Positions 15,311-38,566 are shown, numbered from the stretch's first letter. The stretch is 38,566 nucleotides of DNA from Candidatus Parabeggiatoa sp. nov. 2 (GCA_002085445.1 NBMI01000153.1:1-38566); one strand, 5' to 3'. Numbers and translations are program-made. Notes: a model not told the origin generated them from the letters alone.

Positions 15311-15329
15311 ATATTTTATTTTCCGATAC

Positions 15330-15404: not shown

Positions 15405-15417
15405 ATTTAATCCTTAT

Positions 15418-21591: not shown

Positions 21592-21774
21592 ATTGTCCAA
21601 ACCTAAAGGTTTGGACTCCAAGCTTTGGACAACACAATCAATCAATTGTCCATTGGAGTCCAAAGCTTCAGCTTTGGACAACACAATAAATTGTCCAAAC
21701 CTAAAGGTTTGGACTCCAGCCAAGACATTGGAGTCCAAAGCTTCAGCTTTGGACAACTTAGAGAGGAATTCATG
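21592..21774. repeat. REP-like palindrome cluster (tandemly duplicated ~97-bp unit carrying ccaaacctttaggtttgg and ccaaagcttcagctttgg hairpins) between hynS and isp1
   Basis: Strings read directly; the duplication unit begins inside the hynS stop region (acaacaataaattgtccaaacc...). Confidence 0.85.
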
Positions 21775-22434: not shown

Positions 22435-23738
22435 GTGCGGCTACTTTTGAGCGCGGCTATAAAGCCTTTAAAGAACAAATAGATGCGCCAATCGCGGCCT
22501 ATTTTAGCAGTTGTGTTAGTTGCGGTATGTGTGCCGAAGCCTGTTTGTTTTTCACCGAAACTGGTGATCCGAAATACACGCCCATCTATAAACTTGAACC
22601 CTTACGAAAAGTCTGGGAACAAGAATATACCTTATGGGGCCGACTGAAAGCGTTGTTAGGAATAAGTAAAAAGCTGACTGATGACGAGTTGGCCGAATGG
22701 CAAGAATTGATTTATGGCAGTTGCACTATGTGTGGGCGTTGCACAATGGTTTGTCCGGTGGGCAATGACTTGGTGTATATGATTCGCAAAGCGCGTGAAG
22801 GAATGGCCGCTGCCGGGCATGCACCGCCTGATATCATCGTGGGTACTCAACGCGCCATAACCATCGGCAGTGCGACGGGGGTAGGCTTGCCCACTTTGCA
22901 AGCGCAAATCAGACGCATCGAACGCGAAACGGGTATGAAGATTCCAATGGATGTGCAAGGCGTTGAATATATGGCGCTGCTCTCCTCAATGGAAATTATG
23001 AGCTTTCCAGAATATCTGGAAGCCCTCGCCAAGATTATGAAATACGCAGGCAAAACGTGGACGTTATCGTCTGAAGGCTTTGAAGCCACCAATGCCGGTG
23101 TCCAAATTGGTGTTTCTGAGATTGCTAAAGAATTGGTCATGCGTATTGTCAAGGCGGCGGAAAAACTCCAAGTGAAAACCGTTATCAGTCCTGAATGTGG
23201 CCACGCTTATGGCGCGATACGCTGGGAAGGGCCTAATTTAATAGGTCGCCCCTTTACTTTTCGAGTCCAACATATTCTGGAAGTGCTAGATGAATGGCGC
23301 GAGCAAGGCAAACTGAAAACGGAAGGTTTTGAAAAGGCGCGTCTGACTTTCCACGATCCTTGCCAATCAGTACGGCGTGGCGGTGTCATTGAGCAACCGC
23401 GTAACCTCTTGAAAATGGTGGCGAGTCACTTTGTAGAAATGGAAGATCATGGCAAAATGAATTGGTGTTGTACTGGTGGCGGTGGTGTCGGTGCGATAGA
23501 AGAAGCCCATGAACTTCGTACCAAAGCCTTTAATCGCAAGAAAACGCAGCTTGATGCACTTAAAGTGGACAAGCTAGTGACATCCTGTGCGAATTGTCGT
23601 CTTGTTTTGGAAGATGGGCTTGAAGCTTACGAAATGGAAATGCCCGTTATGGGTTTAACGGAAATGATTGCCGAACATTTAAAGGAGGAAGGTGAAATGG
23701 AAAAGGATAAAGGACTCTATAGATTTTCAGAAAATTAA
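22431..23738 (+). CDS. isp2: Isp2, HdrD-like iron-sulfur protein (two 4Fe-4S ferredoxin motifs plus CCG domain)
   Basis: CVSCGMCAEAC and CTMCGRCTMVCP ferredoxin motifs; CCG-type cysteines (DPCQSV...NWCCTGGGG...CANC). Confidence 0.9.
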   Translation: MSAATFERGYKAFKEQIDAPIAAYFSSCVSCGMCAEACLFFTETGDPKYTPIYKLEPLRKVWEQEYTLWGRLKALLGISKKLTDDELAEWQELIYGSCTMCGRCTMVCPVGNDLVYMIRKAREGMAAAGHAPPDIIVGTQRAITIGSATGVGLPTLQAQIRRIERETGMKIPMDVQGVEYMALLSSMEIMSFPEYLEALAKIMKYAGKTWTLSSEGFEATNAGVQIGVSEIAKELVMRIVKAAEKLQVKTVISPECGHAYGAIRWEGPNLIGRPFTFRVQHILEVLDEWREQGKLKTEGFEKARLTFHDPCQSVRRGGVIEQPRNLLKMVASHFVEMEDHGKMNWCCTGGGGVGAIEEAHELRTKAFNRKKTQLDALKVDKLVTSCANCRLVLEDGLEAYEMEMPVMGLTEMIAEHLKEEGEMEKDKGLYRFSEN

Positions 23739-23749
23739 TTTCTTTGGCA

Positions 23750-23860
23750 GCCAACAGCACAGGAGTCCAAACTTTAGTTTGGCAGTCGTCCAAACTTTAG
23801 GCATCGTTTAGCTAAAGCCTACTAATAGTGCCCTTTAGGGTACTTTAGCTTTAAGCCTTA
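23750..23860. repeat. REP-like palindromes (ggagtccaaactttagtttggcagtcgtccaaactttagg) and an agtgccctttagggtact hairpin unit between isp2 and hynL
   Basis: String matches to the REP family and to the hairpin family seen at 14385. Confidence 0.8.
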
Positions 23861-23944
23861 GAATTTATTCTAAAGCTTAACTTAATGGCATTGGGGTGTG
23901 TTTGGGTTTTCATCGTTCCTTACCAAAGTCGGAGAAACGAACTA

Positions 23945-25639
23945 ATGAGTCACCGTGTTGTTATAGATCCGATTACCCGCATTGAAGGCCATTTACGCAT
24001 CGAAGCGCAAATGGATAAGGCGGGAAAAACCATTCAATCAGCTTATTCATCAGGCACAATGGTGCGCGGTATTGAAATGATTTTACGAGGACGTGATCCG
24101 CGTGATGCGTGGGCTTTTGCTCAACGGATTTGTGGCGTGTGTACGCTAGTGCATGGTATCGCCTCAGTGCGAGCGGTAGAAGATGCACTCAGCTACACGC
24201 CACCGCCCAATGCCCAACTGATACGCAATTTAATGATAGCAGCCCAATATGTGCATGATCATGTGATGCACTTTTATCTTTTACATGCCTTAGATTGGGT
24301 GGATGTGGTTTCGGCTTTAAACGCTAATCCCAAGGAGACTTCTGAACTCGCCCAATCTCTTAGTCACTATCCCAAATCGTCGCCCGGCTATTTTGCCGAT
24401 ATGCAGCGAAAGTTGAAGCATTTTGCTCAAGAAGGACAACTGGGCATTTTTGCTCAAGGGTATTGGGGACATCCGGCCTACAAATTACCTCCTGAAGCTA
24501 ATTTAATAGCCGTCTCACACTATTTAGAAGCGTTAGCATGGCAACGCGAGGTTGCTAAATTACATACTATTTTGGGGGGTAAAAATCCTCATCCTAATTT
24601 CTTAGTTGGCGGTGTACCCTGTGCCATTGATTTGAATTCCGATTCGGCCCTCAATGCCAAAAGACTCGCGCAAGTGCAAGACATTATTACCTTAATGCGC
24701 GATTTTGTGGATCAAGTCTATGTGCCAGATACTCTTGCCATTGCTGGCTTTTATAAAGACTGGGCGAGACAAGGCGAAGGCCTAGGTAACTTTATGACTT
24801 ATGGCGATTTTCCTGAAATGGGTAGGGATGATCCGTCGAGCTTTTTGGTTCCTTCGGGTGTGATTTTAAATCGTGATTTGAACAACATTTATGATTTAGA
24901 CCTGAACGCCGCTGACCAAATTCAAGAATACGTTTCTCGCTCTTGGTACAACTACAGCAGCGGCAAAGATAAAGGCCTCCACCCCTACGACGGCGAAACG
25001 GAACTTTCTTACACCGGCCCAACACCGCCCTATAAACAGTTAGACACTGACAAAGAATACTCCTGGGTAAAATCGCCCCGTTGGAAAGGCCCCGATGGCA
25101 GCATTCATGCGGTAGAAGTTGGCCCGTTGGCGCGCGTGTTGATGTTGTATGCCAACGGCCATGAACAAACTCAGGATATGGTAGATTACACATTGAAAAC
25201 ACTGGAGCTGCCGATAGACGCGTTGTTTTCCACTTTAGGCCGCACCGCGGCCCGTACCTTGGAGACAAAACTCATCGCTGATGCCATGCCAATGTGGTAT
25301 GACAATCTGATTGCTAATATAAAGGCCGGTGACACCAAGACGTTTAACGAAGAACGGTGGGAACCTTCTACTTGGCCGAAACAAGCGAAAGGAGTTGGTT
25401 ATATGGAAGCACCGCGTGGTGCGTTAGCGCATTGGATTGTGATAGAAGACGGTAAAATTGCCAACTATCAAGCGGTTGCGCCGAGTACCTGGCATGCCGG
25501 GCCGCGTGATGCGAATGGACAAGCTGGCGCTTATGAGGCCGCATTGAAAGGCCATGTTCTGCACGATCCCAAACAACCGCTGGAGGTTTTACGCACCATT
25601 CACAGTTTTGCGCCTTGTCTTGCTTGTGCGGTGCATTGA
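23945..25639 (+). CDS. hynL: [NiFe] hydrogenase large subunit; ends exactly at the conserved C-terminal His
   Basis: Start ATG 23945 behind RBS ggagaaacg. N-terminal ITRIEGH and RICGVCTLVH (L1 motif); C-terminal DPCLACAVH followed immediately by TGA. Confidence 0.93.
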   Translation: MSHRVVIDPITRIEGHLRIEAQMDKAGKTIQSAYSSGTMVRGIEMILRGRDPRDAWAFAQRICGVCTLVHGIASVRAVEDALSYTPPPNAQLIRNLMIAAQYVHDHVMHFYLLHALDWVDVVSALNANPKETSELAQSLSHYPKSSPGYFADMQRKLKHFAQEGQLGIFAQGYWGHPAYKLPPEANLIAVSHYLEALAWQREVAKLHTILGGKNPHPNFLVGGVPCAIDLNSDSALNAKRLAQVQDIITLMRDFVDQVYVPDTLAIAGFYKDWARQGEGLGNFMTYGDFPEMGRDDPSSFLVPSGVILNRDLNNIYDLDLNAADQIQEYVSRSWYNYSSGKDKGLHPYDGETELSYTGPTPPYKQLDTDKEYSWVKSPRWKGPDGSIHAVEVGPLARVLMLYANGHEQTQDMVDYTLKTLELPIDALFSTLGRTAARTLETKLIADAMPMWYDNLIANIKAGDTKTFNEERWEPSTWPKQAKGVGYMEAPRGALAHWIVIEDGKIANYQAVAPSTWHAGPRDANGQAGAYEAALKGHVLHDPKQPLEVLRTIHSFAPCLACAVH

Positions 25640-26260: not shown

Positions 26261-29200
26261 TTATGCCTCCATTTGGTACACAGGATAAGGCATTTTAATA
26301 CCGGCCTCTTTAAAGCGATCCCAAATGCCAAACAATACCTTGGATTTTACCTGTGCAGAATTTGCCGACTGGCTATCGATGTAATAGTCAACACGGAAAT
26401 TGACTTTGAAATCCGCAAACCCCAACAAATAGATCCCAAAAGCCTGATCATTAAGGACTTCCGGCATTTCTTCTAACACCGCCTTGATAAGGTTTTCAGC
26501 CAAATGCGGGTCACTGTCATAACTGATACCAATGTCCAAATCGGTATGCAGTACGGTGCCTTCGCCATCGCCATCGTCTTCGCCTTCATCAGTCGTGCGA
26601 CAGCCAGCCCAATTAGTAAAGAGGCCAGAAATAAGCTTTGAATTGGGGACGACGACTTTTTTACTGTCCTCCGTTTCAAGCGTCAGAGAACGAATCCCAA
26701 TTTGTATGACTGTTCCACTGTACACGATACCTCCGCCTTGGGGACTCTCAATCTCCACAAAATCGCCAACTTGTAAGGGACGTTCTACTAACAACAAAAT
26801 GCCACTCACAAAATTATCCGCGATATTTTGCATACCAAAACCGATACCAACACCGACGGCACCGGCAAACACCGCCAAGGCAGTGGGATCTATCCCAAAG
26901 GTTTTCAAGGCAATCAATAGCCCAACCAATATCACTAGATACTGAATAAATACCGACAAACTATGCCGCATTCCCGTATCACTGATCTGTATAAAGAGCC
27001 AACGATAACTGACTCGGCGAAACCAACCACCCAACCAAAACACAAGCCAAACAAGCAGGAGCGACAGTAGCACCCCAAGCACCGTGATTTTGTTACCGTT
27101 TTCAAAGGTCATAAAAGAAAAGAAAAGTACCTTTTCTATATCTTCCTTGATAGCCACATCGGAATACCCACCTGTCAGCCCCAAGACTGCTAGCACTAAA
27201 GGAATCAAGTCTTCAGCCCAGAGTGAAGCAGACTGACTGTCGTCTTTTGACACCCAGTTTTTCCACAGCCCCACTAAATCATTTATAATTCCCCGCGCAA
27301 TCAACCAAGCGAACAACACCAACAGAAACAGGCTGAAATAGTGTGCCACTGTCCAACCCAGAGGAATGTAGCCCGTCATCCCTAATATCGAAACCACCAG
27401 AATAATGCTCGGCAATAATAAGCTGATAAGGTTAATCGCCAATAGCCAATAGCCTTTGGTATGAGTTGTTCGCATTAAGGTGAGTATAAGCAGACGCACA
27501 CGCATGAAGATGGGTATGATCAAAACCAACAACACCATGAACAAAGTGTCAACCAGATCGCGGGCCGTTAAAGAAAGCCCAACTTGCCCTTCAGACTCAT
27601 GATGGACCAATGCGGTGATAACGATCAATAGGCCTAAGACAATAATAGTCCAACGCACTTGCCGAGAGAGCTTGCTCATGTCTTGGGATTTGAACTCAGA
27701 AGCCGATAATAACAACCCAGACAAGTCAATAAGCAGTTTGCCACCTAACCAAGTCAATAACAGAATCAGGGCGACAAGGGTGCTTAAGTGATTCGGTTGT
27801 GTCAGCCAGATGAGCAGTAAAAACACACCCGTGACAGTAATGGTTACAGTATTCTTCTGCCACAGACGTAATCCTACCAGCAAGAGAGAGGGAAATCCCT
27901 CCATGCCCCCGCCGCCGAGGGAGGGGAGTTTTGGTGTGTTAAAAACAGAGGGGGAGGAACCTTTCCCCAAGTGTTTGAGCAAACTACCGCGTTTCTCTAC
28001 AGAATCCGAGGTTTTGAATATTCGCTTAGCCCAAGCACTTAGCCCAATCACTAAACTTAACCAAACCAGCATAACAAGGCCGATGATAAGCCAGCGTTGC
28101 TTGCTGGCTTGTTGAAAGGCTTGCCAAAAACCGCGCCCAGTGTGTTGTGAATGCTGTATGACAATACTCGGTATCGTGCCGATTTCTTTGAGTAAACTCC
28201 ACCATTCCACGGCACTGTTGGGCAAATCTCGCTGTCTCAACAGGGCCCGGTGCATGTTTTCTCTATAGACCTTTTCAAGCCGCTTGAGCAACTCGTCTCC
28301 TTTCTTCAGCAAAGGCCGCACTTGGTCTAATTCTTGCCGCAAGACGTTCTTGAGTTGTGTCAAGAGTTTTTGAGCTTGGGTATTCTTGCTCAACGCTTGA
28401 CCGCTCAATATTCCGCCCTGCTCTTTAACCACCTCCTGTTGTTTTTCCAAGGCCGCCATTTTATTTTCCAGCAGGGTTTGCAATGCTTGGAGATCTAATA
28501 TGAAGGTGTTGAGCTCGGTGATAACGGCTTTGGTATTGTCAAGTTTACTTTGAGAGATGTCCGTCGTTTCTTGTCGCTCCTCGGCCATTTTTTCCCACTG
28601 ACGGAATTGATCTCGGATATGCCGAATATTTAATTGACGCACAGCCCTTTGAGCAAATTCATTGGCCCCTTGAATCTCGACTCCCAGCAGATAACGTTGA
28701 GCAGAGTTTTTCTCCAAAGCGGGTATCAAGTCCAATTTATGGCGTAATTCAGCGGCCAGATCCAGATAACGCTGTTGCTCCTGTTGGATCTGCTTTTCTA
28801 ACTCTTGCTTTTGGCGGAGATGATACACCGCTTGCAATTTATCGTACCACTGTGTCGCAAGCGCTAACCGTTTCTTGGCTTGTTCAATGCGCTGTGTAAC
28901 AACATCAAGCTGTTGTTGTTCCAATTCCAGTGCCTTTTTTTGCAGTTTAATGTCATTCTCAAACACGGCAATTCTTTTCTCGTGCAAAGGCAATTGTTCT
29001 GGTTCAACCGGTGGCGTTTTGCGGATATTTTCCAGTTTTTCCTCTTGTTCCTTGAGGTGCTTGGTTTGATTGTCCAAATTGGTTTTGGCACTTTGGCGTT
29101 CTAAATCCAGATTTTTGACATCAACCTCCACCTTTTGCTTATCCAAGGCCGCTTTTTCAAACCGTTCTTTTAACATATCAACCGTCGATTCTGCGGTTTC

Positions 29201-29923
29201 CAGAGCGGCGATTTTATTGGGCAGATCGCTCTGCGCGGCCTGCAAAGTTTCTTTATGGCGAACCAGTGCCGCTTGGTTATCGGTTATTGCCTGTTCCCGT
29301 TCTTTAAGCATATGCGTTTGATGCAGCGTTTGCAATTGACTATGCCACTCTATAGCGACAAGCGTTTGCTTGATGGCCTGTTCAGTCTGCGTCTTAAGCA
29401 GTTCGAGATATTGTTGTCCAAGTTCAACGGCCGGTTTGTACAAGGCTACGTCCTTCTCAACCGCAGTTCTTTCCTTATTTTGAGCCACGGTTAGTTCAGC
29501 ACGCGGAAATTGGCTGAGTTTTTGTAACGTCGTTTGTAATTCCGTGAGACGTGCGGAATGTTTATCCAGACTGTCTTGAACATTTTTGCGTTCCACACGC
29601 AGTTCTTCGACTTTCTGGTTAGCAGTCTGCCGTTCCTTGGCCGCTTTTTCCAACATTTGTTGGGTGATCTTTTCAGTTTTTGCCAAACTGTCGATTCTCT
29701 TCTGGAGCGTTTGCTCTTCAGCTTGCAACGCTTTGCGAGCCTTTTTTAGCGCAGCTTGTGCTTTTGTTATCTGCGCTTTCCGCTCTTTAATCCATTGCGG
29801 TGTCACAGTGCTGGCGGCATCGGTGGTTTCAGGATTAGCCACCGATTGTTCTGCATGTGCCGGTAAGCCAACTATGCTTACGTACACAAATAAACAATAC
29901 ACCATAAATTTGAATAAAGACAT
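26261..29923 (-). CDS. mscK: MscK/KefA-like mechanosensitive channel (MscS family) with a large periplasmic coiled-coil N-domain
   Basis: Signal peptide; ~500-aa coiled coil; ~11 TM helices; C-terminal MscS core GVGIGFGMQNIADNFVSGILLLVERPLQVGDFVEI...GTVIQIGIRSLTLETEDSKKVVVPNSKLISG. Confidence 0.85.
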   Translation of the reverse strand: MSLFKFMVYCLFVYVSIVGLPAHAEQSVANPETTDAASTVTPQWIKERKAQITKAQAALKKARKALQAEEQTLQKRIDSLAKTEKITQQMLEKAAKERQTANQKVEELRVERKNVQDSLDKHSARLTELQTTLQKLSQFPRAELTVAQNKERTAVEKDVALYKPAVELGQQYLELLKTQTEQAIKQTLVAIEWHSQLQTLHQTHMLKEREQAITDNQAALVRHKETLQAAQSDLPNKIAALETAESTVDMLKERFEKAALDKQKVEVDVKNLDLERQSAKTNLDNQTKHLKEQEEKLENIRKTPPVEPEQLPLHEKRIAVFENDIKLQKKALELEQQQLDVVTQRIEQAKKRLALATQWYDKLQAVYHLRQKQELEKQIQQEQQRYLDLAAELRHKLDLIPALEKNSAQRYLLGVEIQGANEFAQRAVRQLNIRHIRDQFRQWEKMAEERQETTDISQSKLDNTKAVITELNTFILDLQALQTLLENKMAALEKQQEVVKEQGGILSGQALSKNTQAQKLLTQLKNVLRQELDQVRPLLKKGDELLKRLEKVYRENMHRALLRQRDLPNSAVEWWSLLKEIGTIPSIVIQHSQHTGRGFWQAFQQASKQRWLIIGLVMLVWLSLVIGLSAWAKRIFKTSDSVEKRGSLLKHLGKGSSPSVFNTPKLPSLGGGGMEGFPSLLLVGLRLWQKNTVTITVTGVFLLLIWLTQPNHLSTLVALILLLTWLGGKLLIDLSGLLLSASEFKSQDMSKLSRQVRWTIIVLGLLIVITALVHHESEGQVGLSLTARDLVDTLFMVLLVLIIPIFMRVRLLILTLMRTTHTKGYWLLAINLISLLLPSIILVVSILGMTGYIPLGWTVAHYFSLFLLVLFAWLIARGIINDLVGLWKNWVSKDDSQSASLWAEDLIPLVLAVLGLTGGYSDVAIKEDIEKVLFFSFMTFENGNKITVLGVLLSLLLVWLVFWLGGWFRRVSYRWLFIQISDTGMRHSLSVFIQYLVILVGLLIALKTFGIDPTALAVFAGAVGVGIGFGMQNIADNFVSGILLLVERPLQVGDFVEIESPQGGGIVYSGTVIQIGIRSLTLETEDSKKVVVPNSKLISGLFTNWAGCRTTDEGEDDGDGEGTVLHTDLDIGISYDSDPHLAENLIKAVLEEMPEVLNDQAFGIYLLGFADFKVNFRVDYYIDSQSANSAQVKSKVLFGIWDRFKEAGIKMPYPVYQMEA

Positions 29924-29934: not shown

Positions 29935-30185
29935 ATAATAGACTTTAGACCGTTTTCATCCTTGCTTATATTCAATCCTTGTAGAGTACAACTAATTACG
30001 CGGATAAACGAATTAACGAGTGAAGTAAGTACAACTAATTACGCGGATAAACGAATTAACTAATGAAGTAAGTACAACTAATTACGCGGATAAACGAATT
30101 AACGAGTGAAGTACAACTAATTACGCGGATAAACGAATAAACAGGTGGATTGTGTCGCTCAATTCGTTTATTTCTCCATCAAAGT
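29935..30185. repeat. Tandem array of ~43-bp units (32-bp core gtacaactaattacgcggataaacgaattaac plus 7-11-bp linkers) x3.5, then a degenerate copy
   Basis: Read directly; the core is the family-B element. Confidence 0.85.
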
Positions 30186-30262: not shown

Positions 30263-30589
30263 ATGAGTACAATTCCTGTTATTGTTGACGAAGAAGCAGA
30301 AGCCAAACCAAAATCAGGCACACTGGGCGGTGGCAGACTTAGCCCTAAAAAAGGGGGGCGACTTAAACACATTGATACTGATGTGTTACGTGCTTCACTT
30401 GAGACACTTTCTACGCAGGTTGCTGAGATGTTACAGGATATTCAAAAAGAATTTGGCGGCTTCAAGCTCAAAGAAGTACAATTACAAGTTGAAGTGAATG
30501 CGGAAGGCGGTGTTGCGCTTATCGGTACGGCAAAAGCCGGCACTACTCGCGGCATTACCCTTACCTTTGCCACCGATTCAGATAAATAG
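30263..30589 (+). CDS. Small Trypco2-like (trypsin-co-occurring domain 2-like) protein, 108 aa
   Basis: C-terminal pattern FGGFKLKEVQLQVEVNAEGGVALIGTAKAGTTRGITLTF (alternating hydrophobic beta pattern with Gly-rich turn) resembles the Trypco2 domain of NTP-dependent conflict systems; RBS ggag. Confidence 0.55.
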   Translation: MSTIPVIVDEEAEAKPKSGTLGGGRLSPKKGGRLKHIDTDVLRASLETLSTQVAEMLQDIQKEFGGFKLKEVQLQVEVNAEGGVALIGTAKAGTTRGITLTFATDSDK

Positions 30590-31585
30590 CGCATCAAGCC
30601 GTCAATTCGTTATCCCTCAATTAGACTTGACACCGAACGAGGCAAAACTTTTTCGCTTAAAAAACGGATTCCGAGTTCACAATTTGCGCTTTTGTCATCT
30701 TATTGGGCGGTATACAGATTTCTCAAGTTCAAGTTCAAGTTCCCTCACTGAGTCGGGATCGTCTGGATCGTCCCCACTGACAAAAAAGCTTAAGGATGGC
30801 GATGCTCAGTATAAAACCTCCAAGGTTGATCTCGCTTGCGGAAGTTACTTCGTTTGATAAACCTCGGAGTTTGCCCGAATGAAATATGAAATATGAAATA
30901 TGAAAATTTGTAAATGACTAAATTGAACAATAATTCAATGACTTATTTCGCATGTTGGCTGTTTCACGAATTTAAAGTACGTTATGAGAAATGAAAAATG
31001 ACAAATTGTAAATAATGCGAATTAAGGGTTGAATTAATTATTATGAAATCAAGGATTTATAAAAACTTCTGATTGAGAAGTTATAGAAAAAATCTAACGC
31101 ACGCAAATGACGCTTGCATGCGCCGCGCATAATTTAGATATCTCTTGCGTCAAAGCGCGTCAAAGCGCGTTTATTTTATAGCCCATTCAATCGAGATGCT
31201 CTCGTTGTAATAAAACACCTACAAAAAGTCTGGCTAATGAGTTATTTCGCATGTTGGCCGTTTCACGATTTTAAAGTACGTTCCTTATGTAATATAACTC
31301 GTGGAGTTTCGCTCTCTCAGTGCAAGGCTTCAGCCTTGCACTTTACTTACAAACCAATGTACTATTGATAACTGATAACTAATATACTCAACATAGGCAT
31401 AACTTGGATTTCCTGGTAGATACACAGGCTATATTAATATCGCCCCGTTGGGGCTTTTCGTATTTTTGTTTCTCAAAAAGTCCTTTTCAGGCTAAAGTTT
31501 TTCTCCGAAAAACTTTATGAAAATTTGTTCCCTTCTTGGGTATAACTAATAATTTATCACAAATATTTGATAACTGATAACTGAC

Positions 31586-32074
31586 ATGCACCCACTCAGC
31601 GTTTTTATAGACGATCTCCGTCAAAAAGAAGACTGGTTTGTGCCCACGCTGCACGACTATCACCGTATTAATCTCGCATTACAAGCCGGGGGCGAATGGA
31701 AAATCACCCAATTGCGGGATATGTTAGCAGCCCTGTTAGTCAAAACGCCAGAGCAAGACATGATTTTTCAGCGGCGTTTTAAAGAATTTTTTTATCTGCA
31801 TGTTCCAGCGGAATTGAGTAAAGTGGATGTGCAACGTGCGCAGGATTTAGGCTCACCGTTTGAACAAACGAAAGTGCCCCTTGGACAACAAAATAATGAT
31901 CAACAAATATCCGAACCAAACCCTGTCAATGAGAATAAAAATTCATCAGGAACTGATGTCGGAGACTTAACGAGTCCAAGAGTCAAATGGTTTAAAAGAA
32001 AGTATGCCCTTTTAGGGCTAATAGGCATTACTTTTGGGTTTATTATTTGGTTAATCGTGTGGGTATTGACATGA
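31586..32074 (+). CDS. Hypothetical protein with C-terminal TM helix, 162 aa
   Basis: ORF with C-terminal helix ALLGLIGITFGFIIWLIVWVL; no recognisable domain; weak RBS. Confidence 0.4.
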   Translation: MHPLSVFIDDLRQKEDWFVPTLHDYHRINLALQAGGEWKITQLRDMLAALLVKTPEQDMIFQRRFKEFFYLHVPAELSKVDVQRAQDLGSPFEQTKVPLGQQNNDQQISEPNPVNENKNSSGTDVGDLTSPRVKWFKRKYALLGLIGITFGFIIWLIVWVLT

Positions 32075-32339
32075 ATACATTAGTTCTATCAACGAGCGCA
32101 TTCCCATTTTCCGGGTACTTTGTTAATAACGATGGCGATTATATTATCGATAAGGATTGATAAAAGTCAATTTTTCTGTTGAGTACTTGAGTACAACGAC
32201 ACAAGCGGGCCGATAAACGAATAATTAAAACGAGCTATTAGACATGAATGGTTCAATAAATGCTTCGGTTTTGTTCGCTTTTTGAGAAGAGGATTAATCG
32301 GTGGATTTTATTTAATTCTGATAAAGCAATATAGGCGTT

Positions 32340-32670
32340 CCAGAACGAAGTTTGGCGTTCCAGAACGAAGTTTCGTTGTACTAAATTCGTTAATCCGCGT
32401 AATTCGTTGTACTAAATTCGTTAATCCGCGTAATTCGTTGTACTAAATTCGTTAATCCACGTAATTCGTTGTACTTAATTCGTTAATCTGCGTAATTAGT
32501 TGTACTAAATTCGTTAATCCGCGTAATTCGTTGTACTAAATTCGTTAATCCACGTAATTCGTTGTACTCAATTCGTTTATCCGCGTAATTCGTTGTACTT
32601 AATTCGTTTAGGAGCAATATAGGCGTTCCATAACGAAGTTTGGCGTTCCATAACGAAGTTTTGTTGTACT
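32340..32670. repeat. 31-bp tandem array (ttcgttgtactaaattcgttaatccgcgtaa) x~7.5, flanked on both sides by a duplicated 23-bp doublet gcaatataggcgttccaKaacgaagttt
   Basis: Read directly; the array is 32384..32620. Confidence 0.9.
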
Positions 32671-32746
32671 TACTTAACCGTGAAAACGGAAATGCGCCCC
32701 TATCAACTCTTTACAAAATTATCTTGAGCCTCTAACGAGAGACAAC

Positions 32747-35017
32747 ATGGAAAACTTTTTATATATTGCTATTGCTATTGCTATCGCTATTGTTATCTCT
32801 ATTGCTAGAATTCGCTTGTTAGTTTTTATCAAATGGGCATGTGTGAAGCTACGACTATGCACACCTGAACAGGAAAATGTGGATCCGCCCCCACCCCCAC
32901 CTGATCAAACAATCGGCCCTAAGTGGAATAGTTCTAAGCCTCGTTTATTTTCATTAGGCAAAGTGGGGGGTAAGCCAAGTCCGCGTTTGTCGCCGCAGGT
33001 TTTGGATTCCTTAGCTCATTCAATGGGTTATTTTGACGATAGCCAAGGCCGTAAGCGGCTTGATATAAACAATACTATCAAAGCCAGTGTGCAAAAGGGC
33101 ATACCTGAATTGATTTATTATCCTGATAAACAACTACGCACCGTGCTGGTTTTAGAAGATGCGTTTGCTAAACCCTTACGCTGGAATCCCATTGCCAGCG
33201 AATTAGCCAAAGGACTCAAGCAACGCGGCATCTCTGTGTTGTATGGCAAATTTTACGGTTCACTCAACCAATTTAGTACACCGCAAAATCAACTTTACCA
33301 CTTGAAAGATTTAGAATGGGAAGCGCACTCTTATTTTCTTTTGATATTCAGTGATGGCAAAATATTAAATTACCATAGGGACAGTTCAACTTTAAAAGCA
33401 TTATCAAATTGGCCCAAAGTCGCTTGGATGGAACTACGCGAGCCTCGCTCATGGGATGAAAGTGCGGCCCTACCTAGCCACTTTGGTTTGCCTATTTACC
33501 CTGCGACTAGCGAGGGTTTATTACAAGTCATAGGCGGGTTTTTGAATGAAGACGAAACGCGGCCAGAGGATTTTAAACATCGGGCTATTAATGCCCGCGG
33601 AATACCACCACGATTAGGCCGTAATCTCAATACCTATGTAGAAGAATTATTAGGCGATGCGTTCCGTTGGGCGCAATGTTGTGCGCTGCTGCAACCGGTG
33701 AGTCTGGGATTGGCGGATGCGTTGCGCCGGAAGTTTTGCTCAAAATTACCAGCGGCGCGTATTGAACGGTTATTTATATTGCCCAATACCACTGAGACTG
33801 TTAATGGGTTATACTTTTCCAAACCCGTCTTAGCCGTTTTACGGGCTGCCTTTCAAAGACGCTTTAGTGAAAGCGAACAAGAACAAGTTCTAAGGTTTAT
33901 ATTAGAAAAACTCAAAGAAGTTGAACCAACAGATGAAGAAAGTCTGGCACATTTGGCATGGGAATGGCGTTGGCAACAAATTAAACTTGAACTTAATCCC
34001 GATGACGCTTTACAACAGCTTGAAGAACTAGCCGAAACGCCATTAGGGGATGCCATTCGGGCCGAATTACAAAACATTTCCCTACCACCTAAAAATGGCC
34101 TAATTACACCTAATCCTGAGCAGATTCCATTACGGCTTAGGCCTAAAACTGAAATCGCGTTGCAGCAGCTACAACATCTTACCGGACGTAATCTTCTCGA
34201 AGAATCAGAACAACCACTACCAGTAATCATTCTTCCCAAGAGGAGGTGGAAAACCTTCCGCGACAAACTGAAAGACGGCGGTAAGGGTCCAGAAATGGTG
34301 TGGATACCGGCCGGGCGGTTTCGTATGGGTGATATTCAGGGCGGTGGCCGTGATAATGAGCAACCCGTGCATGATATCTATGTAGGTAGCTTTGCGATGG
34401 GACGCTATCCGGTGACTTTTGCGGAGTATGACCGTTTTGCCAAAGCCACGGGTAGAGAAATACCCGATGATGAAGGTTGGGGGCGGGACAATCGCCCAGT
34501 GATTATTGTCTCTTGGTATGATGCAATCGCTTATACTGAATGGTTGACTCAACAAACTGGCAAACACTATCGCTTACCCACTGAAGCTGAGTGGGAATAT
34601 GCGGCACGAGCAAGAACGGAGACTAAGTATTGGTGGGGCGATGATATCGGCACTAATCGGGCTAATTGTTCGGGCAGTGGTAGTCGATTCAGTGGTAAAA
34701 AAACGGCTCCCGTGGGTTCTTTTAAACCTAATCCCTTTGGGTTATATGACACAGTGGGCAACGTTTGGGAATGGACGTGTTCAGAATATGAGGAAAAATA
34801 TCGTGGTAAGGAAACCGAATGCATAAGCAAAAATAATGCAAAAAATAATAAAAAGACTAAGCTCGTCTTTCGGGGCGGTAGCTTCCATAAGAATGAACGA
34901 CAGTGGAGAAAAATAGATTCTCGTTTGACGTACCGTGGCAAAACCGAGCCGTATAAGGTCTTCCAAAATTTAGGCTTTCGGATTGTTAGGGTATATACGG
35001 AGAAGACTGAAAACTAG
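32747..35017 (+). CDS. Membrane protein with poly-Pro linker, a central domain of unknown function and a C-terminal FGE-sulfatase (SUMF1/FGS) domain
   Basis: N-terminal TM helix (encoded partly by a (GCTATT)n repeat), then PPPPPPD. C-terminal EMVWIPAGRFRMGD...NEQPVHDIYVGSFAMGRYPVTFAEYDRF...VSWYDAIAYTEWL...RLPTEAEWEYAAR...GNVWEWTCSEY...RGGSF...RLTYRG matches the FGE-sulfatase fold signature. Confidence 0.8.
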   Translation: MENFLYIAIAIAIAIVISIARIRLLVFIKWACVKLRLCTPEQENVDPPPPPPDQTIGPKWNSSKPRLFSLGKVGGKPSPRLSPQVLDSLAHSMGYFDDSQGRKRLDINNTIKASVQKGIPELIYYPDKQLRTVLVLEDAFAKPLRWNPIASELAKGLKQRGISVLYGKFYGSLNQFSTPQNQLYHLKDLEWEAHSYFLLIFSDGKILNYHRDSSTLKALSNWPKVAWMELREPRSWDESAALPSHFGLPIYPATSEGLLQVIGGFLNEDETRPEDFKHRAINARGIPPRLGRNLNTYVEELLGDAFRWAQCCALLQPVSLGLADALRRKFCSKLPAARIERLFILPNTTETVNGLYFSKPVLAVLRAAFQRRFSESEQEQVLRFILEKLKEVEPTDEESLAHLAWEWRWQQIKLELNPDDALQQLEELAETPLGDAIRAELQNISLPPKNGLITPNPEQIPLRLRPKTEIALQQLQHLTGRNLLEESEQPLPVIILPKRRWKTFRDKLKDGGKGPEMVWIPAGRFRMGDIQGGGRDNEQPVHDIYVGSFAMGRYPVTFAEYDRFAKATGREIPDDEGWGRDNRPVIIVSWYDAIAYTEWLTQQTGKHYRLPTEAEWEYAARARTETKYWWGDDIGTNRANCSGSGSRFSGKKTAPVGSFKPNPFGLYDTVGNVWEWTCSEYEEKYRGKETECISKNNAKNNKKTKLVFRGGSFHKNERQWRKIDSRLTYRGKTEPYKVFQNLGFRIVRVYTEKTEN

Positions 35018-35297
35018 ACGTATACTGAACCTAAGTACAGAAAAAAAATTTACGCGTCATTGTAATTACTTTTTTTTATTGATTATATCAGTAATATACC
35101 TTATATAAAACTTATCAATCGATGATCAAGTTTTTAGTCTTCCAACCATAACTACAAGGATTGTATATAAGAAGGGATTTCTTATAACAAATTTCTGAGA
35201 AATTTTTAAGTAAGAAATCGAATCGATATGAGAGATATCAATTATCTCACCTAAGTCTAAATTTAGACTCTAAAAAATGAATGTCGAAAGTTTGGAG

Positions 35298-36123
35298 GTT
35301 TTCACTCGATGATCAAGTTTTTAGTCTGACAATGCACAAGGATTGTATATAATAAGGGATTTTAGAAACTAGCAGATAGGAAACTCAAATACTAAACCCT
35401 AAAAATCCGTTTATTCCCTTTCATCCTAAGTACTTTCAGTCTAAGTGCCATTAGACCCAAAACCCTCATTTTTCCCATCCCCTATCCCCACGAAGGTGAG
35501 GGGCCTTTTAACTACAACTGTGGGCCAGGTTTTGAAATGATAAGCCTTGGTTTTGTTAATGGCCCTCAATTGGCAAAGCCATTTATTAGATGGGCATAAA
35601 TTGGCAAAAGCATCGATCCGAAGTTCTTCGCTCAGTCTAACGCTTGATGGTTAAAATACAACTGTGGGCCAGGTTTTGAAATGATAAGCCTTGGTTTTGT
35701 TGATGGCCCTCAATTCAAAGGCCGTTTATTAGACATGCAGACGACCAACGCTTGGCCGAAATTGGCAAAGCCATCGATCCGAAGTTCTTCGCTTTCGCGT
35801 TGATTGTTACAGCAAACCGAGAGATTGATTACCACCGTTTAGTAAGTTCTTGCGGCTCAGGTATTTAACCTTTGGCAACTTGAATGAGGCCTTCTTGGTG
35901 ATGGCAACGTTGCCTTTTGCGTTTAAAGGTGGCTTTTGGCTAATCTTCTTGTTAGGCGAAAAACTTGATCATCGAATGAAATCAAATCTCCATTAATTAG
36001 CTATTCCCTTATCATTGCTGTATTTTAAAAAAGTTGACTGAGGTGATTTGATGCTCGTTTCGATAATCCCTTATTATATACAATCCTTGTGCATTGTCAG
36101 ACTAAAAACTTGATCATCGAGTC
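35298..36123. mobile_element. MITE-like non-autonomous element, ~826 bp, with perfect 57-bp terminal inverted repeats and no ORF
   Basis: 35298..35354 ctcgatgatcaagtttttagtctgacaatgcacaaggattgtatataataagggatt is the exact reverse complement of 36067..36123. Internal ~150-bp tandem duplication (35510..35620 / 35660..35800). A partial left-end copy lies at 35110..35175. Confidence 0.7.
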
Positions 36124-36127
36124 AAAT

Positions 36128-36180
36128 AGTTACGTCGGCAAAAGTTTCGCGGAGCGAAACTTTTGCCGACGTTGGATGTT
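36128..36180 (+). terminator. Strong hairpin (terminator-like) related to the 9364 hairpin
   Basis: cgtcggcaaaagtttcgc-ggag-cgaaacttttgccgacg, 18-bp stem, followed by ttggatgtttt. Confidence 0.5.
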
Positions 36181-36296
36181 TTCAAATTAAACACTAATGC
36201 AATTAGCCGGCCTTTTAAAAAAAATAGCCGGCCTTATTGAAAAATGACCATCACTTGTGATATAAAATTAAATTCTTTTTGTGATGAGGAAAAAAT

Positions 36297-38183
36297 ATGG
36301 CAAACACCGTTCGGTATTTTCTGGAAATTAAAAAAGATAACAAGGGTGCTTATCGGTGTTGGATTCATCAAGGCGAGCAGCATAATGCTTTTGGCGATTT
36401 AAAAAATTTGCGACTAAAACCAAACAGTCGCGTCGAGATTAAAGGTAAAAAAATAACCCTCAAAAGGTTAGTTGAAGAACTCATTACTTTTGATTACAAC
36501 GACGAAGAGCAGGCTAGGCTGAAATTGAAATTTGATGAACGCGAACAATCAGACATTGGGCAACATCTCTTTGATGAAACCTTTGGCAAACTGAAATCAT
36601 CTATTTATAACGAAATTTTAAGGTATGAACAAAAAGAGGTTCGCATTTTATGCACCGATGAACATATTGCTCGTTTGCCTTGGGTGTTACTCTCAGATCG
36701 TGGAGAATTCTTATCGGCTGCGGGTTGGTCTATAGCGCTTCAAACAGAGGCAACAACGGAAGCAGAGGTAGAATTGCCACCACATCCTAAAATGTTGATA
36801 ATCGCTCCCCAACCTGAAGACGTGGCAGACACCGAAGCAGATGTCCATGTCACAGAGTTGCGTGACTTATTATCATGGCCTGAAAGCGTAGAAACCTGTC
36901 TCCAAGTTGCGTCCACATGGGAAGAATTCAAAACCAAAGTGAAATCCTTAGAACCGGACATCGTATATTACTATGGCCATGGTGAAGGTGACATTAATAC
37001 CACTCACTTGCTGTTCGCAGACCAAACGCAGCAATGTTGCAAAATACCAGTTGCTGATTTTGCTCAGGTATTACGCAACCTACCGAAAAGGCCCTCACTG
37101 GCTTACATCAATTGTTGTCAAGGTGATACTGGGGGTTGGTTAGGCGTTGGGCGACAATTAGGGAAATTTATCCCCGCTGTTCTCACCAATAGCACGGTGG
37201 CATGGATTGATGCCGCACGCGCTCAAGCAAGCGCGTTCTGGCGTGGACTCTTGAAAGAAGGATTGACACCCCATGAATCCGTTTCTGGGATGCGTCGTCG
37301 CTTGGTTGATGACAATACGAGCTTTGGTGATGCACGTTGGATGACACCTGTGTTGCACTGCCATTATCACAACTGGAAAACCAATCTTCCTAGCCCGACT
37401 AATTGGCTTGAACGCGAGCCGTTATGGCGGCTAAAACTAGACCGTATCAAACAAGTCAGTGAAATATTTTACCAAATCAGTGAAATGATTGAAGTAAATC
37501 TACCTTCACTGGCCTATATTTGGTATGGTAAAACGGGACAAGGTGTAGAAATTTTCCATGAACGTTTGGAGTTGGAACTCAGCAAAAAGTTGGCTTACAA
37601 GGTAAAAACCATCAAACCCTCATGGCATAAAAACTTCGTAGAAACCATCAAACCCTCGTGGCCTGACGATTTTGCACATGTTCACCGCTCCTTTAACGAT
37701 ATGTATCGTGAATGCTTTAAAGTGAATGCTTTGGAAGACATTCCTTATTGTATTCAAAAGCATCCAAATGCTGGTACGATCCTATATGTTTGTCATCAGC
37801 AACCTATTTCACCTTCAGACATTAATGAAACGCGTCTGAAAAGATACCTAACCTGGTGGGACACTAAGATCATTCCCATTTTAAAGCAGGCTAATATCTA
37901 TGGCTTACTTGGTATTTCTTTTATAGTGGATGACACAGCCCAATTCAAAACTCAATTCTCGCAAGCACTTGACACGTTAACTTTATCCAATACCGTGTTC
38001 AGATTATTAGACGAATTGGGCGATGTGCTCCCAGAAGAAGTAGAACTTTTCTTAAAGTTTAATAAGATTCCGGTGCCTAATGATGACAAAAAAGACTTAT
38101 TAAACGACATTATGCGAGAAACTAACGGCCAGTATGAAAAGACGTTGGAACAACTCAAGGCGCTCGTCAATAATCTTGCTTAA
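36297..38183 (+). CDS. CHAT-domain (caspase-like) protease, 628 aa
   Basis: CHAT-type catalytic dyad contexts PDIVYYYGHGEGD (His) and LAYINCCQGDTGG (Cys); upstream LPWVLLSDRGEFLSAAGWSI; N- and C-terminal regions are unassigned. Confidence 0.8.
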   Translation: MANTVRYFLEIKKDNKGAYRCWIHQGEQHNAFGDLKNLRLKPNSRVEIKGKKITLKRLVEELITFDYNDEEQARLKLKFDEREQSDIGQHLFDETFGKLKSSIYNEILRYEQKEVRILCTDEHIARLPWVLLSDRGEFLSAAGWSIALQTEATTEAEVELPPHPKMLIIAPQPEDVADTEADVHVTELRDLLSWPESVETCLQVASTWEEFKTKVKSLEPDIVYYYGHGEGDINTTHLLFADQTQQCCKIPVADFAQVLRNLPKRPSLAYINCCQGDTGGWLGVGRQLGKFIPAVLTNSTVAWIDAARAQASAFWRGLLKEGLTPHESVSGMRRRLVDDNTSFGDARWMTPVLHCHYHNWKTNLPSPTNWLEREPLWRLKLDRIKQVSEIFYQISEMIEVNLPSLAYIWYGKTGQGVEIFHERLELELSKKLAYKVKTIKPSWHKNFVETIKPSWPDDFAHVHRSFNDMYRECFKVNALEDIPYCIQKHPNAGTILYVCHQQPISPSDINETRLKRYLTWWDTKIIPILKQANIYGLLGISFIVDDTAQFKTQFSQALDTLTLSNTVFRLLDELGDVLPEEVELFLKFNKIPVPNDDKKDLLNDIMRETNGQYEKTLEQLKALVNNLA

Positions 38184-38439: not shown

Positions 38440-38510
38440 TCAACCCCGATAGGGGTTGAATTTGAATAGCCCCAGGTGAAACCTCAATGCCATTAAGTTA
38501 AGGAAAATGT
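38440..38510. repeat. Dispersed repeat (ccccgataggggttgaat...ccccaggtgaaacctcaatgccattaagttaagg), related copies at 1190..1250 and 1392..1425
   Basis: Shared strings cctcaatgccattaagttaagg and cccc-hairpin gaatagcc. Confidence 0.7.
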
Positions 38511-38566
38511 GTTATAGTTATTGCCTTTCAAACAGTAGGTAAAATCAATTTATGGAAAAACACACA

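What the first reader, a model, noticed from the sequence alone, without database searches (positions are those of the whole stretch)
30263..38183. Loosely organised same-strand cluster of conflict-system-like genes: Trypco2-like - TM protein - TM+FGS sensor - CHAT caspase, with no NTPase partner in view
Four plus-strand genes in 8 kb encode (i) a 108-aa Trypco2-like protein, (ii) a small C-terminally anchored protein, (iii) a TM protein with a poly-Pro stalk and a C-terminal FGE-sulfatase (FGS) domain, and (iv) a CHAT caspase-like protease with an intact His/Cys dyad. FGS 'sensor', Trypco2 and CHAT 'effector' domains are recurring partners in NTP-dependent conflict and programmed-cell-death-like systems of multicellular bacteria. 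Those systems are normally built around a STAND NTPase or GTPase, and none is encoded here. The genes are separated by 0.5-1.3 kb spacers packed with tandem arrays and a MITE. Either this is a non-canonical membrane-associated arrangement (sensor in the envelope, protease in the cytoplasm), or the original operon was broken up by repeat invasion. Both readings deserve a look.
Basis: partly seen in the sequence, partly recalled or inferred. Interest (0 to 1): 0.75.

Follow-up and report, generated by a model that had tools for sequence, protein, structure and literature searches.

The report
Caspase–Pepco defence operon, IS-interrupted
The four genes form a known type of bacterial suicide and immunity operon whose ATPase gene was not missing by design but was cut off by a mobile element, so the locus is a battered copy of a known system.

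Summary
All four ORFs exist as described, but two calls need correcting. g1 is Pfam Pepco, not Trypco2. g4 is CHAT fused to an inactive STAND (iSTAND) module. g2 and g3 are two halves of one vWA-component gene: CoxE-like N-domain and TM1, then TM2, vWA, vWA-L and a non-catalytic FGS domain.

This is the iSTAND-type MoxR–vWA ternary conflict system of Kaur et al. 2020, with a Pepco pro-toxin.

- Among 49 species-representative loci, a MoxR gene directly follows the CHAT–iSTAND gene in 39 of 42 informative cases.
- Pepco sits directly upstream of the vWA gene in 11 of 25 loci.
- A sister-taxon locus reads g2 | g3 – g4 – MoxR.

The window holds no MoxR because it ends 83 nt inside a multicopy IS4-family element. 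Contigs carrying this organism's MoxR begin with the other end of that IS, and the same 9-bp sequence flanks both ends. That MoxR carries a Q178* stop in six assemblies.

The "NTPase-free non-canonical system" reading is refuted. The "operon broken up by mobile DNA" reading is supported. This is a new, partly decayed member of a known kind, of modest interest.

The parts
29985..30152 (.). 43-nt tandem array (3.8 copies) of the genome-wide dispersed repeat AATTACGCGGATAAACGAATT. It is inverted relative to the array at 32372-32608.
   Evidence: 19 copies of the 21-mer across the whole window, 0 expected
30263..30589 (+). g1: Pepco (peptidase co-occurring) small protein, the predicted beta-barrel pro-toxin and substrate of the CHAT protease
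   Evidence: Pfam PF24393 E 2.1e-17. Pepco lies directly upstream of the vWA-component gene in 11 of 25 homologous loci. Function is taken from PMC12642450.
31586..32074 (+). g2: N-terminal piece of the vWA component, a CoxE-type helical N-domain plus linker plus TM1, ending in a stop right after the TM
   Evidence: aa 21-84 align to aa 21-84 of the single 1107-aa protein of L007 (47%, E 8e-14). The own 'ndom' HMM hits the N-termini of fused homologues. The same split, with a TM-stop, occurs in sister locus L016.
32075..32746 (.). 672-nt non-coding gap that splits the vWA-component gene in the loop between TM1 and TM2. It holds a 31-nt x7.6 array (32372-32608) bracketed by 63-nt direct repeats.
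   Evidence: Fused homologues have an approximately 60-aa P/T-rich loop here.
32747..35017 (+). g3: TM2, Pro-rich linker, vWA-like domain (MIDAS position reads LEDAFA), helical vWA-L, then a non-catalytic FGS (FGE-sulfatase / C-type-lectin fold) domain
35036..36184 (.). About 1.15 kb of DNA absent from the sister locus (whose g3-g4 spacer is 166 nt). It is a MITE-like element with 75-nt inverted repeats (35300-35374 / 36052-36126), followed by a 19-bp-stem terminator-like hairpin at 36132-36172.
   Evidence: Assemblies of the same organism differ by a 153-nt indel at 35959.
36297..38183 (+). g4: small N-terminal beta domain, a CHAT caspase-like protease (H228, C273/C274), and an iSTAND module (P-loop position reads GKTGQGVE, with no Walker A Lys-Ser/Thr)
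38475..38483 (.). GGTGAAACC, a possible target-site duplication. The same 9-mer directly follows the IS right end on the MoxR contigs.
38484..38566 (+). Left end of a multicopy IS4-family insertion sequence (transposase ATG at 38552). The window and all assemblies break here.
   Evidence: 11 metagenome contigs carry the junction; DDE_Tnp_1 E 6e-16

Best explanation
What it is. The cluster is one copy of the iSTAND-type MoxR-vWA 'ternary' conflict system of multicellular bacteria, equipped with a Pepco pro-toxin. Its canonical gene order is Pepco, then the vWA component (N-domain, TM hairpin, vWA, vWA-L, FGS), then CHAT-iSTAND, then MoxR.

Proposed working (inferred from the families, not shown here).
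1. The membrane-tethered vWA protein and the MoxR AAA+ ATPase act as a chaperone/co-chaperone switch.
2. The non-catalytic FGS lectin-fold domain and/or the iSTAND module bind an invader-derived ligand.
3. The iSTAND module oligomerises and brings the CHAT protease domains together.
4. The activated protease cleaves the pre-assembled Pepco beta-barrel, which then permeabilises the membrane. This kills the infected cell of the filament.

State of this copy. The system is damaged by mobile DNA.
- The vWA gene is split into g2 and g3. The split is old, shared with a sister taxon, and probably tolerated.
- A MITE-like element with a terminator-like hairpin separates g3 from g4.
- An IS4-family element separates g4 from MoxR.
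- MoxR carries a Q178* stop in most assemblies.
The copy is therefore probably impaired or inactive.
For: Domain identities.
- Pepco E 2e-17 and FGS E 1e-56.
- iSTAND Pfam hits in 13 of 27 relatives, and the Walker A lysine is missing family-wide.
- g2 plus g3 are colinear with single fused proteins.

Linkage.
- MoxR is directly downstream in 39 of 42 loci, with a median gap of 17 nt.
- Among the 25 loci with at least 6 kb on both sides, vWA is present in 24, FGS in 14 and Pepco in 13. Pepco is immediately upstream of the vWA gene in 11 of them.
- Sister locus L016 reads g2 | g3 -166 nt- g4 -279 nt- MoxR.

The missing MoxR.
- The window ends 83 nt into an IS whose transposase is DDE_Tnp_1.
- A MoxR fragment is annotated in the same MAG: DRR08_33325, against g4 = DRR08_33565.
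- Its contigs in four assemblies begin with the IS right end.
- Both IS flanks carry the identical 9-mer GGTGAAACC.
- Those contigs hold no other iSTAND or vWA gene within 10 kb downstream.
- Q178* is present in six assemblies and absent from L018.

Selection. dN/dS against L016 is 0.44 for g3 and 0.43 for g4, with CHAT at 0.21.

Literature. System definition comes from PMC7159879 and PMC8195603. Pepco as a protease-activated pore comes from PMC12642450.
Against: - No contig physically joins g4 to MoxR. The IS has at least 11 copies and prefers a REP-like palindrome, so the 9-bp match could be coincidental: one other copy (L023) has the same left-flank 9-mer.
- One assembly (L081) places the same MoxR behind an NRPS/PKS gene.
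- Synonymous divergence of this MoxR from L016's MoxR is dS 0.59. That is about three times the value for g3 and g4 (0.19-0.23), which is unexplained if all are simple orthologues.
- The MIDAS DxSxS motif is not kept in the vWA-like domain, and the g3 model has only moderate confidence (pLDDT 70.8).
- The Pepco proteins of this subfamily lack the roughly 20-aa C-terminal tail that is cleaved in the only characterised Pepco, so the cleavage step cannot be transferred directly.
- No expression or activity data exist.
Confidence: 0.8

Rival explanations
1. This would be a non-canonical, NTPase-independent membrane system in which an envelope FGS sensor signals to a cytoplasmic CHAT protease and Pepco without any MoxR, STAND or GTPase switch.
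For: No active NTPase gene lies in the 38.6-kb window. The only candidate MoxR has a premature stop in most assemblies, yet g1-g4 remain intact in all but one assembly (L001 shows a 58-nt frameshifting deletion in g3) and evolve under dN/dS of about 0.4.
Against: - 39 of 42 homologous loci have MoxR directly downstream, and so does the sister locus.
- The window ends in an IS.
- g4 carries an iSTAND module.
- g3 has no TM between vWA and FGS, so the FGS domain is predicted to be cytoplasmic.
Confidence: 0.05
2. The locus is a dead relic. After the IS and MITE insertions and the MoxR nonsense mutation, the four ORFs are unexpressed or functionless remnants on their way to loss.
For: - IS right after g4.
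- About 1.15 kb of extra, MITE-like DNA with a strong terminator-like hairpin in front of g4.
- Split vWA gene.
- MoxR Q178* in six assemblies.
- One assembly (L001) has a 58-nt frameshifting deletion in g3.
- iSTAND dN/dS is 0.62.
Against: - g1-g4 are intact and identical in at least eight independent assemblies.
- The catalytic dyad is kept, and CHAT dN/dS is 0.21.
- The g2/g3 split is shared with a taxon about 12% diverged in DNA. Both copies of g2 keep a TM-stop end despite a divergent linker, which argues that the split is functional.
- An intact MoxR allele exists (L018).
Confidence: 0.3
3. The genes are neighbours by chance, or belong to different systems. For example, Pepco might serve another protease, and the FGS protein might be a sulfatase-maturing enzyme.
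For: The spacers are long (0.7-1.3 kb) and promoter-like sites are not enriched.
Against: The same order, Pepco - vWA(FGS) - CHAT-iSTAND - MoxR, recurs across Desulfobacterota, Thiothrix, Thiosymbion, Acidobacteriota, Planctomycetota, Verrucomicrobia and others. The FGS domain lacks both catalytic cysteines and scores far below every NCBIfam enzyme cutoff.
Confidence: 0.02

Closest known systems
iSTAND-type MoxR-vWA ternary conflict system (Kaur, Burroughs, Iyer & Aravind, eLife 2020, PMC7159879; 2021, PMC8195603)
   Same: - A third component made of an N-terminal caspase-like peptidase plus an inactive STAND module.
- A vWA component with a CoxE-type helical N-domain, TM segments, a vWA-L linker and a C-terminal FGS domain. 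FGS is the commonest effector of these systems (about 22%).
- A MoxR gene adjacent in relatives.
- Occurrence in filamentous or multicellular bacteria.
   Different: - The vWA component is split into two ORFs in the loop of its TM hairpin.
- MoxR is separated from the operon by an IS and carries Q178* in most assemblies.
- A Pepco gene is part of the conserved order. Kaur 2020 paired Trypco1/2 with trypsin and alpha/beta-hydrolase with caspase, not with iSTAND caspases, in the passages read.
Pepco-protease modules (Evans et al., bioRxiv 2025, PMC12642450): SsPepco-SsAvs4
   Same: A small Pepco protein encoded next to a sensor-coupled protease. The preprint lists FGE-type sensors and cysteine proteases among Pepco partners.
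   Different: - The characterised case uses a trypsin-like Avs4 and cleavage after Ile97, which removes a roughly 20-aa C-terminal tail.
- g1 and its 18 relatives in CHAT-iSTAND loci end 0-6 residues after the last strand.
- They instead share a conserved N-terminal 'MSTIPV...TLG' extension.
CHAT proteases of type III-E CRISPR (Csx29/TPR-CHAT) and SAVED-CHAT (PDB 8tl0)
   Different: The regulatory module here is an inactive STAND plus MoxR-vWA, not TPR/gRAMP or SAVED/cyclic oligonucleotide.
NorQ-NorD, RavA-ViaA and Midasin-MIDAS (MoxR-class AAA+ with a vWA partner)
   Same: The g3 core model is closest to these MoxR-partnered vWA/MIDAS domains.
   Different: Those are metal-insertion or ribosome-assembly chaperones with an intact MIDAS. 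Here the MIDAS position reads LEDAFA, and the protein carries TM and FGS modules.

Membership tests
iSTAND-type MoxR-vWA ternary system | Third component with an iSTAND (inactive STAND NTPase) core and an N-terminal signalling or peptidase domain | tested here: met
iSTAND-type MoxR-vWA ternary system | The STAND module is catalytically inactive (Walker A Lys and Walker B acidic residues lost) | tested here: met
   The family consensus is YGxxGQGVExF with no K[ST]. The strand at the Walker B position reads LVYxRHxP. Motif positions were read by eye against the known GxxGxGK[ST] and hhhhD[DE] patterns.
iSTAND-type MoxR-vWA ternary system | vWA component with a CoxE-type helical N-domain, optional TM, vWA, vWA-L and a variable C-terminal effector | tested here: met
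iSTAND-type MoxR-vWA ternary system | Adjacent MoxR-class AAA+ ATPase gene | tested here: inconclusive
   Absent from the window. Present directly downstream in 39 of 42 relatives and in sister locus L016. The candidate in the same MAG lies on contigs that start with the right end of the IS that ends the window, with a matching 9-bp flank. There is no physical join, and most assemblies carry Q178*.
iSTAND-type MoxR-vWA ternary system | Preferential occurrence in bacteria with a multicellular or filamentous habit | tested here: met
   The host is Candidatus Parabeggiatoa. Relatives occur in Electrothrix, Thiothrix, Magnetoglobus/Magnetomorum, Chloroflexaceae, Caldilineaceae and Desulfococcaceae HSG. 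No statistical test was run here.
Pepco (PF24393) | Match to the family model above the curated cutoff | tested here: met
   64.1 bits against a cutoff of 27, covering model positions 3-110 of 112
Pepco (PF24393) | Encoded next to a protease-bearing defence gene | tested here: met
   13 of 25 well-flanked CHAT-iSTAND loci carry Pepco, and 11 have it immediately upstream of the vWA gene of the same operon.
Pepco (PF24393) | Cleavable C-terminal autoinhibitory tail (about 2 kDa, after a conserved Ile), as in SsPepco | tested here: not met
   g1 has 6 residues after the last strand, and relatives have 0-6. The SsPepco description comes from PMC12642450.
CHAT / caspase-like peptidases (PF12770, clan CD) | His-Cys catalytic dyad in the caspase-hemoglobinase fold | tested here: met
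Trypco2 | Match to a Trypco2 family model | tested here: not met
   hmmscan against Pfam-A at E<=1 lists only Pepco and, below cutoff, Trypco1.
Formylglycine-generating enzyme (catalytic FGE/SUMF1) | Pair of catalytic cysteines after the RGGS motif | tested here: not met
   g3 reads RGGSFHKNERQWRK where Streptomyces FGE 6muj reads RGGSYLCHDSYCNRY. All NCBIfam enzyme models score far below cutoff.
DGR-diversified FGS sensor | Template repeat matching the 3' variable region, and a reverse transcriptase nearby | tested here: not met
   The last 800 nt of g3 have no second copy in the window, even at word size 7. No RT appears among the window ORFs. The rest of the genome was not searched.

The most novel reading that the evidence does not exclude
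In the CHAT-iSTAND branch, Pepco may be licensed differently from the one characterised case. These Pepcos have no C-terminal tail but share a conserved N-terminal 'MSTIPV...G-TLG' extension, so the caspase-like protease may activate the pore by N-terminal processing. In addition, the vWA component can work as two separately encoded membrane proteins: a tail-anchored N-domain plus a TM-vWA-FGS protein. This natural split is conserved in two Parabeggiatoa-like taxa.
Probability: 0.3. Interest if true: 0.5.

Novelty: new member of a known kind. Interest (0 to 1): 0.3.

Why it matters
**Annotation.** The result resolves an apparent anomaly, a conflict system with no NTPase, as an artefact of a contig ending in an IS. 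It also assigns four 'hypothetical' Parabeggiatoa genes to a defined system.

**Comparative by-product.** Across distant phyla, Pepco forms a fixed four-gene module with the vWA-FGS, CHAT-iSTAND and MoxR genes. This gives the computationally predicted iSTAND systems a concrete and testable effector step: the CHAT protease cleaves Pepco, which forms a membrane pore.

**Evolution.** The locus shows how IS elements, MITEs and nonsense alleles erode such costly suicide systems in a repeat-rich giant sulfur bacterium. Intact and null MoxR alleles coexist in nature.

Tried and rejected
- **PADLOC models.** The only hit was a weak 'Cyclase' match to g4 (E 0.005). It was disregarded.
- **MoxR pseudogene in the spacers.** tblastn with four MoxR proteins found only the P-loop of the unrelated GspA-like ATPase at 16088. 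Rejected.
- **The 5 codons at the window end (MEKHT) as the MoxR start.** Rejected. L003 extends them to MEKHTLDDENDK, which is the N-terminus of a 448-aa DDE transposase.
- **DGR targeting of the FGS domain.** No TR/VR pair and no RT in the window.
- **L018 as a direct continuation of the window.** There is no sequence overlap, only shared dispersed repeats. The link comes instead from contigs L079-L084.
- **Promoter scan.** Not above the shuffled expectation (26 against 21±5), so nothing was concluded about transcription units.
- **Nicastro et al. 2023**, the paper that named Pepco, is not held in the library.
- **Parabeggiatoa in the genome-contig scan.** Not among the hits, so it gave no extra contig for this organism.


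Full report
**Observation**

- g1 30263-30589 (108 aa)
- g2 31586-32074 (162 aa)
- g3 32747-35017 (756 aa)
- g4 36297-38183 (628 aa)

The spacers measure 996, 672 and 1279 nt. They contain a 43-nt array upstream of g1 and a 31-nt x7.6 array between g2 and g3. Between g3 and g4 lies a MITE-like element with 75-nt inverted repeats.

The core 21-mer of the arrays, AATTACGCGGATWAACGAATT, occurs 19 times in intergenic DNA all over the window, against 0 expected. Repeat-packed spacers are therefore a property of this genome, not of this cluster. An identical protein names the organism as Candidatus Parabeggiatoa sp. nov. 2.

**Domain identities**

*g1.* It is Pfam Pepco (PF24393, E 2e-17). Trypco1 is sub-threshold and no Trypco2 model matches.

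*g3.* It has a C-terminal FGE-sulfatase/FGS domain (E 1e-56). That domain lacks both catalytic cysteines of real FGEs: RGGSFHKNERQW against RGGSYLCHDSYCNRY. It also falls far below every NCBIfam enzyme cutoff, so it is a binding module and not an enzyme.

*g4, protease half.* It does not itself reach Pfam CHAT.
- In an alignment of 27 relatives, YYYGH228G and NC273C274 are invariant.
- 8 of 27 relatives hit CHAT and 13 of 27 hit iSTAND.
- The family profile finds the CHAT protease 8tl0.

**g2 and g3 are one split gene**

- g2 aa 21-84 align to aa 21-84 of a single 1107-aa protein next to the g4 homologue of Desulfococcaceae HSG8 (47%, E 8e-14).
- g3 aa 54-504 align to aa 230-664 of that same protein (44%).
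- Fused homologues have this order: helical N-domain, TM1, P/T-rich loop, TM2, core, FGS or another effector.
- g2 stops right after TM1 and g3 starts with TM2, so the 672-nt repeat-bearing gap lies in the hairpin loop.

Positive residues follow the single TM of g3, and there is no further TM before FGS. By homology and the positive-inside rule, vWA and FGS are cytoplasmic. This is an inference.

**What system this is**

Kaur et al. (PMC7159879; PMC8195603) defined the iSTAND-type MoxR-vWA ternary system. Its parts are:
- a MoxR ATPase;
- a vWA protein with a CoxE-like helical N-domain, frequent TM segments, a vWA-L linker and a variable C-terminal effector, most often FGS;
- an iSTAND protein with an N-terminal caspase-like, trypsin, TIR or EAD domain.

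Every part in the window fits this description.

**Neighbourhood test**

I fetched 49 species-representative loci encoding g4 relatives and scanned their ORFs with HMMs built here.
- Of 42 loci with at least 1.1 kb downstream, 39 have a MoxR gene directly downstream on the same strand, with a median gap of 17 nt.
- Of 25 loci with at least 6 kb on both sides, 24 have the vWA component, 14 have FGS and 13 have Pepco.
- In 11 of those 25, Pepco is immediately upstream of the vWA gene.

The canonical order is Pepco, vWA(FGS), CHAT-iSTAND, MoxR. Electrothrix and some Thiothrix loci carry the cyclic permutation iSTAND, MoxR, Pepco, vWA. Precomputed Pfam annotation of five further loci agrees.

**Sister locus**

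L016 has about 88% DNA identity to the window; g3 is 83% and g4 77% identical at the amino-acid level. It reads g2-like (ending in TM-stop) -990 nt- g3-like -166 nt- g4-like -279 nt- MoxR. Three conclusions follow.
- The g2/g3 split predates the divergence of the two taxa. Both keep a C-terminal TM on g2 despite a divergent linker, which argues that the split is tolerated or functional.
- About 1.15 kb (35036-36184) of the window's g3-g4 spacer has no counterpart in L016. It includes a 19-bp-stem terminator-like hairpin at 36132-36172.
- MoxR is expected right after g4.

**Why MoxR is not in view**

tblastn finds no MoxR anywhere in the window. All assemblies of this locus end within about 400 nt after g4. 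The last 15 nt (ATGGAAAAACACACA) start a 448-aa DDE_Tnp_1 transposase. Eleven metagenome contigs carry the junction sequence. Comparing their flanks places the IS left end at window 38484.

The MoxR closest to L016's (83% aa) belongs to a cluster that includes DRR08_33325 of Candidatus Parabeggiatoa sp. nov. 2. This is the same MAG that holds g4 as DRR08_33565. Evidence that this MoxR is the missing partner:
- Its contigs in four assemblies begin with the last 90-140 nt of the same IS, in the same orientation. About 1.37 kb of repeat-rich DNA and then MoxR follow.
- The 9-mer GGTGAAACC lies immediately before the IS in the window and immediately after it on those contigs. This is as expected for a target-site duplication.
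- Those contigs hold no iSTAND or vWA gene downstream, so this MoxR is otherwise an orphan.
- Two samples (ERZ27227322 and 3300010330) contain both the g3 contig and this MoxR contig.

I take this as good but circumstantial evidence that a single IS sits between g4 and MoxR. Three caveats apply:
- The IS is multicopy and targets a REP-like palindrome, and one other copy has the same left 9-mer.
- One assembly (L081) joins MoxR to an NRPS/PKS context.
- The MoxR-to-L016 synonymous distance (dS 0.59) is about three times that of g3 and g4.

**State of the system**

In six independent assemblies the MoxR gene has a C-to-T change at nt 532. This gives Q178* (TAA) in an otherwise open frame. One assembly (L018) has the intact allele.

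g1-g4 are intact and identical in at least eight assemblies. One assembly (L001) shows a 58-nt frameshifting deletion in g3.

dN/dS against L016:

| Gene or region | dN/dS |
|---|---|
| g3 | 0.44 |
| g4 (whole) | 0.43 |
| g4, CHAT | 0.21 |
| g4, iSTAND | 0.62 |

This is moderate constraint, typical of immune genes, and there are no internal stops. The copy in this population is therefore probably impaired: the ATPase switch is lost and the operon is interrupted three times. It has not yet eroded.

**Mechanism (inferred)**

I follow Kaur et al. for the switch and sensor logic and Evans et al. (PMC12642450) for Pepco.
1. MoxR and vWA act as an ATP-driven threshold switch at the membrane.
2. The FGS domain and/or the iSTAND module bind an invader molecule.
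3. iSTAND oligomerisation activates the CHAT protease.
4. CHAT cleaves the pre-formed Pepco beta-barrel, which then permeabilises the membrane and kills the infected cell of the filament.

Only the domain identities and the gene linkage are shown here.

One difference from the characterised case stands out. The 19 Pepcos in CHAT-iSTAND loci end 0-6 residues after the last strand, so they lack the roughly 20-aa C-terminal tail removed in SsPepco. They share a conserved N-terminal MSTIPV...G-TLG extension. The cleavage site may therefore be N-terminal.

**Novelty and verdict**

The system type has been known since 2020, and Pepco-protease pairing since 2023-2025. No DGR signature is present.

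Particular to this locus:
- the conserved split of the vWA component;
- the degree of mobile-element damage;
- the coexistence of null and intact MoxR alleles.

The fixed four-gene module with Pepco in CHAT-iSTAND systems is a useful comparative observation, but it is an extension of published work. The finding is a new, damaged member of a known kind, with interest about 0.3.

Noticed in passing
window 1562-11592: A second conflict-type cluster lies on the plus strand. It holds a 1008-aa DO-GTPase2 protein (PF19993, E 1e-9), a 748-aa coiled-coil protein, a 409-aa protein with no family, and a 560-aa Sel1-repeat plus Peptidase_C14 caspase. It looks like a GTPase-centric system of the Kaur 2020 type.
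   Followed up: no
window 15127-15724: tRNA-Gly(GCC) x2 and tRNA-Cys(GCA) are followed at 15444-15724 by a full-length Rfam group I intron match (58.6 bits). ARAGORN calls no tRNA there, so this may be an intron-bearing tRNA gene that the tRNA finder missed.
   Followed up: partly
L079-L084 (MoxR contigs), e.g. L079 1518-2456; intact allele L018 1137-2075: The MoxR gene of this Parabeggiatoa carries a single C-to-T change giving Q178* (TAA) in six independent assemblies and in both NCBI MAG annotations. It is intact in L018 and in three other cluster members. This is a natural null/intact polymorphism.
   Followed up: yes
window 38484-38566; full copy L021 about 5043-6868: A roughly 1.8-kb IS4-family element (448-aa DDE transposase; terminal repeat TCAATGCCATTAAGTTAAG) is present in at least 11 metagenome contigs. 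Most copies sit inside a REP-like palindrome CCCCAGGTnnnACCTGGGG, which suggests target preference.
   Followed up: partly
window 29985-30152 and 32372-32608: Two arrays built on the same core repeat lie in inverted orientation and bracket g1 and g2. Recombination between them could invert the Pepco/g2 segment. No inverted variant was seen in the assemblies examined.
   Followed up: no
window 34124-34181 (against L001 7834/7835); 35959; 31236-31241: Assemblies of the same organism differ by indels. One is a 58-nt deletion inside g3 in L001, which frameshifts it into 473 + 240 aa. L002-L004 have an extra 153 nt in the g3-g4 spacer. L002 and L003 have an extra 182 nt, and L001 an extra 104 nt, in the g1-g2 spacer. 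These are either real population variation or assembly collapse at repeats.
   Followed up: partly
Pepco ORFs in L008, L031, L033, L038, L040, L043, L050, L055, L058, L061, L063, L067-L072 and window 30263-30589: Pepco proteins linked to CHAT-iSTAND systems have no C-terminal tail beyond the last strand but share a conserved N-terminal MSTIPV...G-TLG segment. The characterised SsPepco, by contrast, is activated by C-terminal cleavage.
   Followed up: partly
MoxR of L018 against L016 (939 nt): Synonymous divergence is dS 0.59, about three times that of g3 and g4 between the same two lineages (0.19-0.23). This hints at recombination, module exchange or paralogy of the MoxR gene.
   Followed up: no
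L079 4085-8617 (minus strand): A 1510-aa TPR-CHAT protein is encoded just downstream of the MoxR gene. It is another caspase-like conflict protein in the same neighbourhood.
   Followed up: no
L007 12439-12894: In Desulfococcaceae HSG8 an IS200-type Y1 transposase gene lies in the 1.9-kb gap between the CHAT-iSTAND and MoxR genes, the same junction that the IS4-family element occupies in this window.
   Followed up: no
window 354-731; 20497-25639; 26261-29923: The rest of the window holds a BrnT toxin gene, an Isp-type NiFe hydrogenase cluster (small subunit, membrane protein, HdrD-like Fe-S protein, large subunit), and a 1220-aa MscK-like mechanosensitive channel on the minus strand, divergent from g1.
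   Followed up: no
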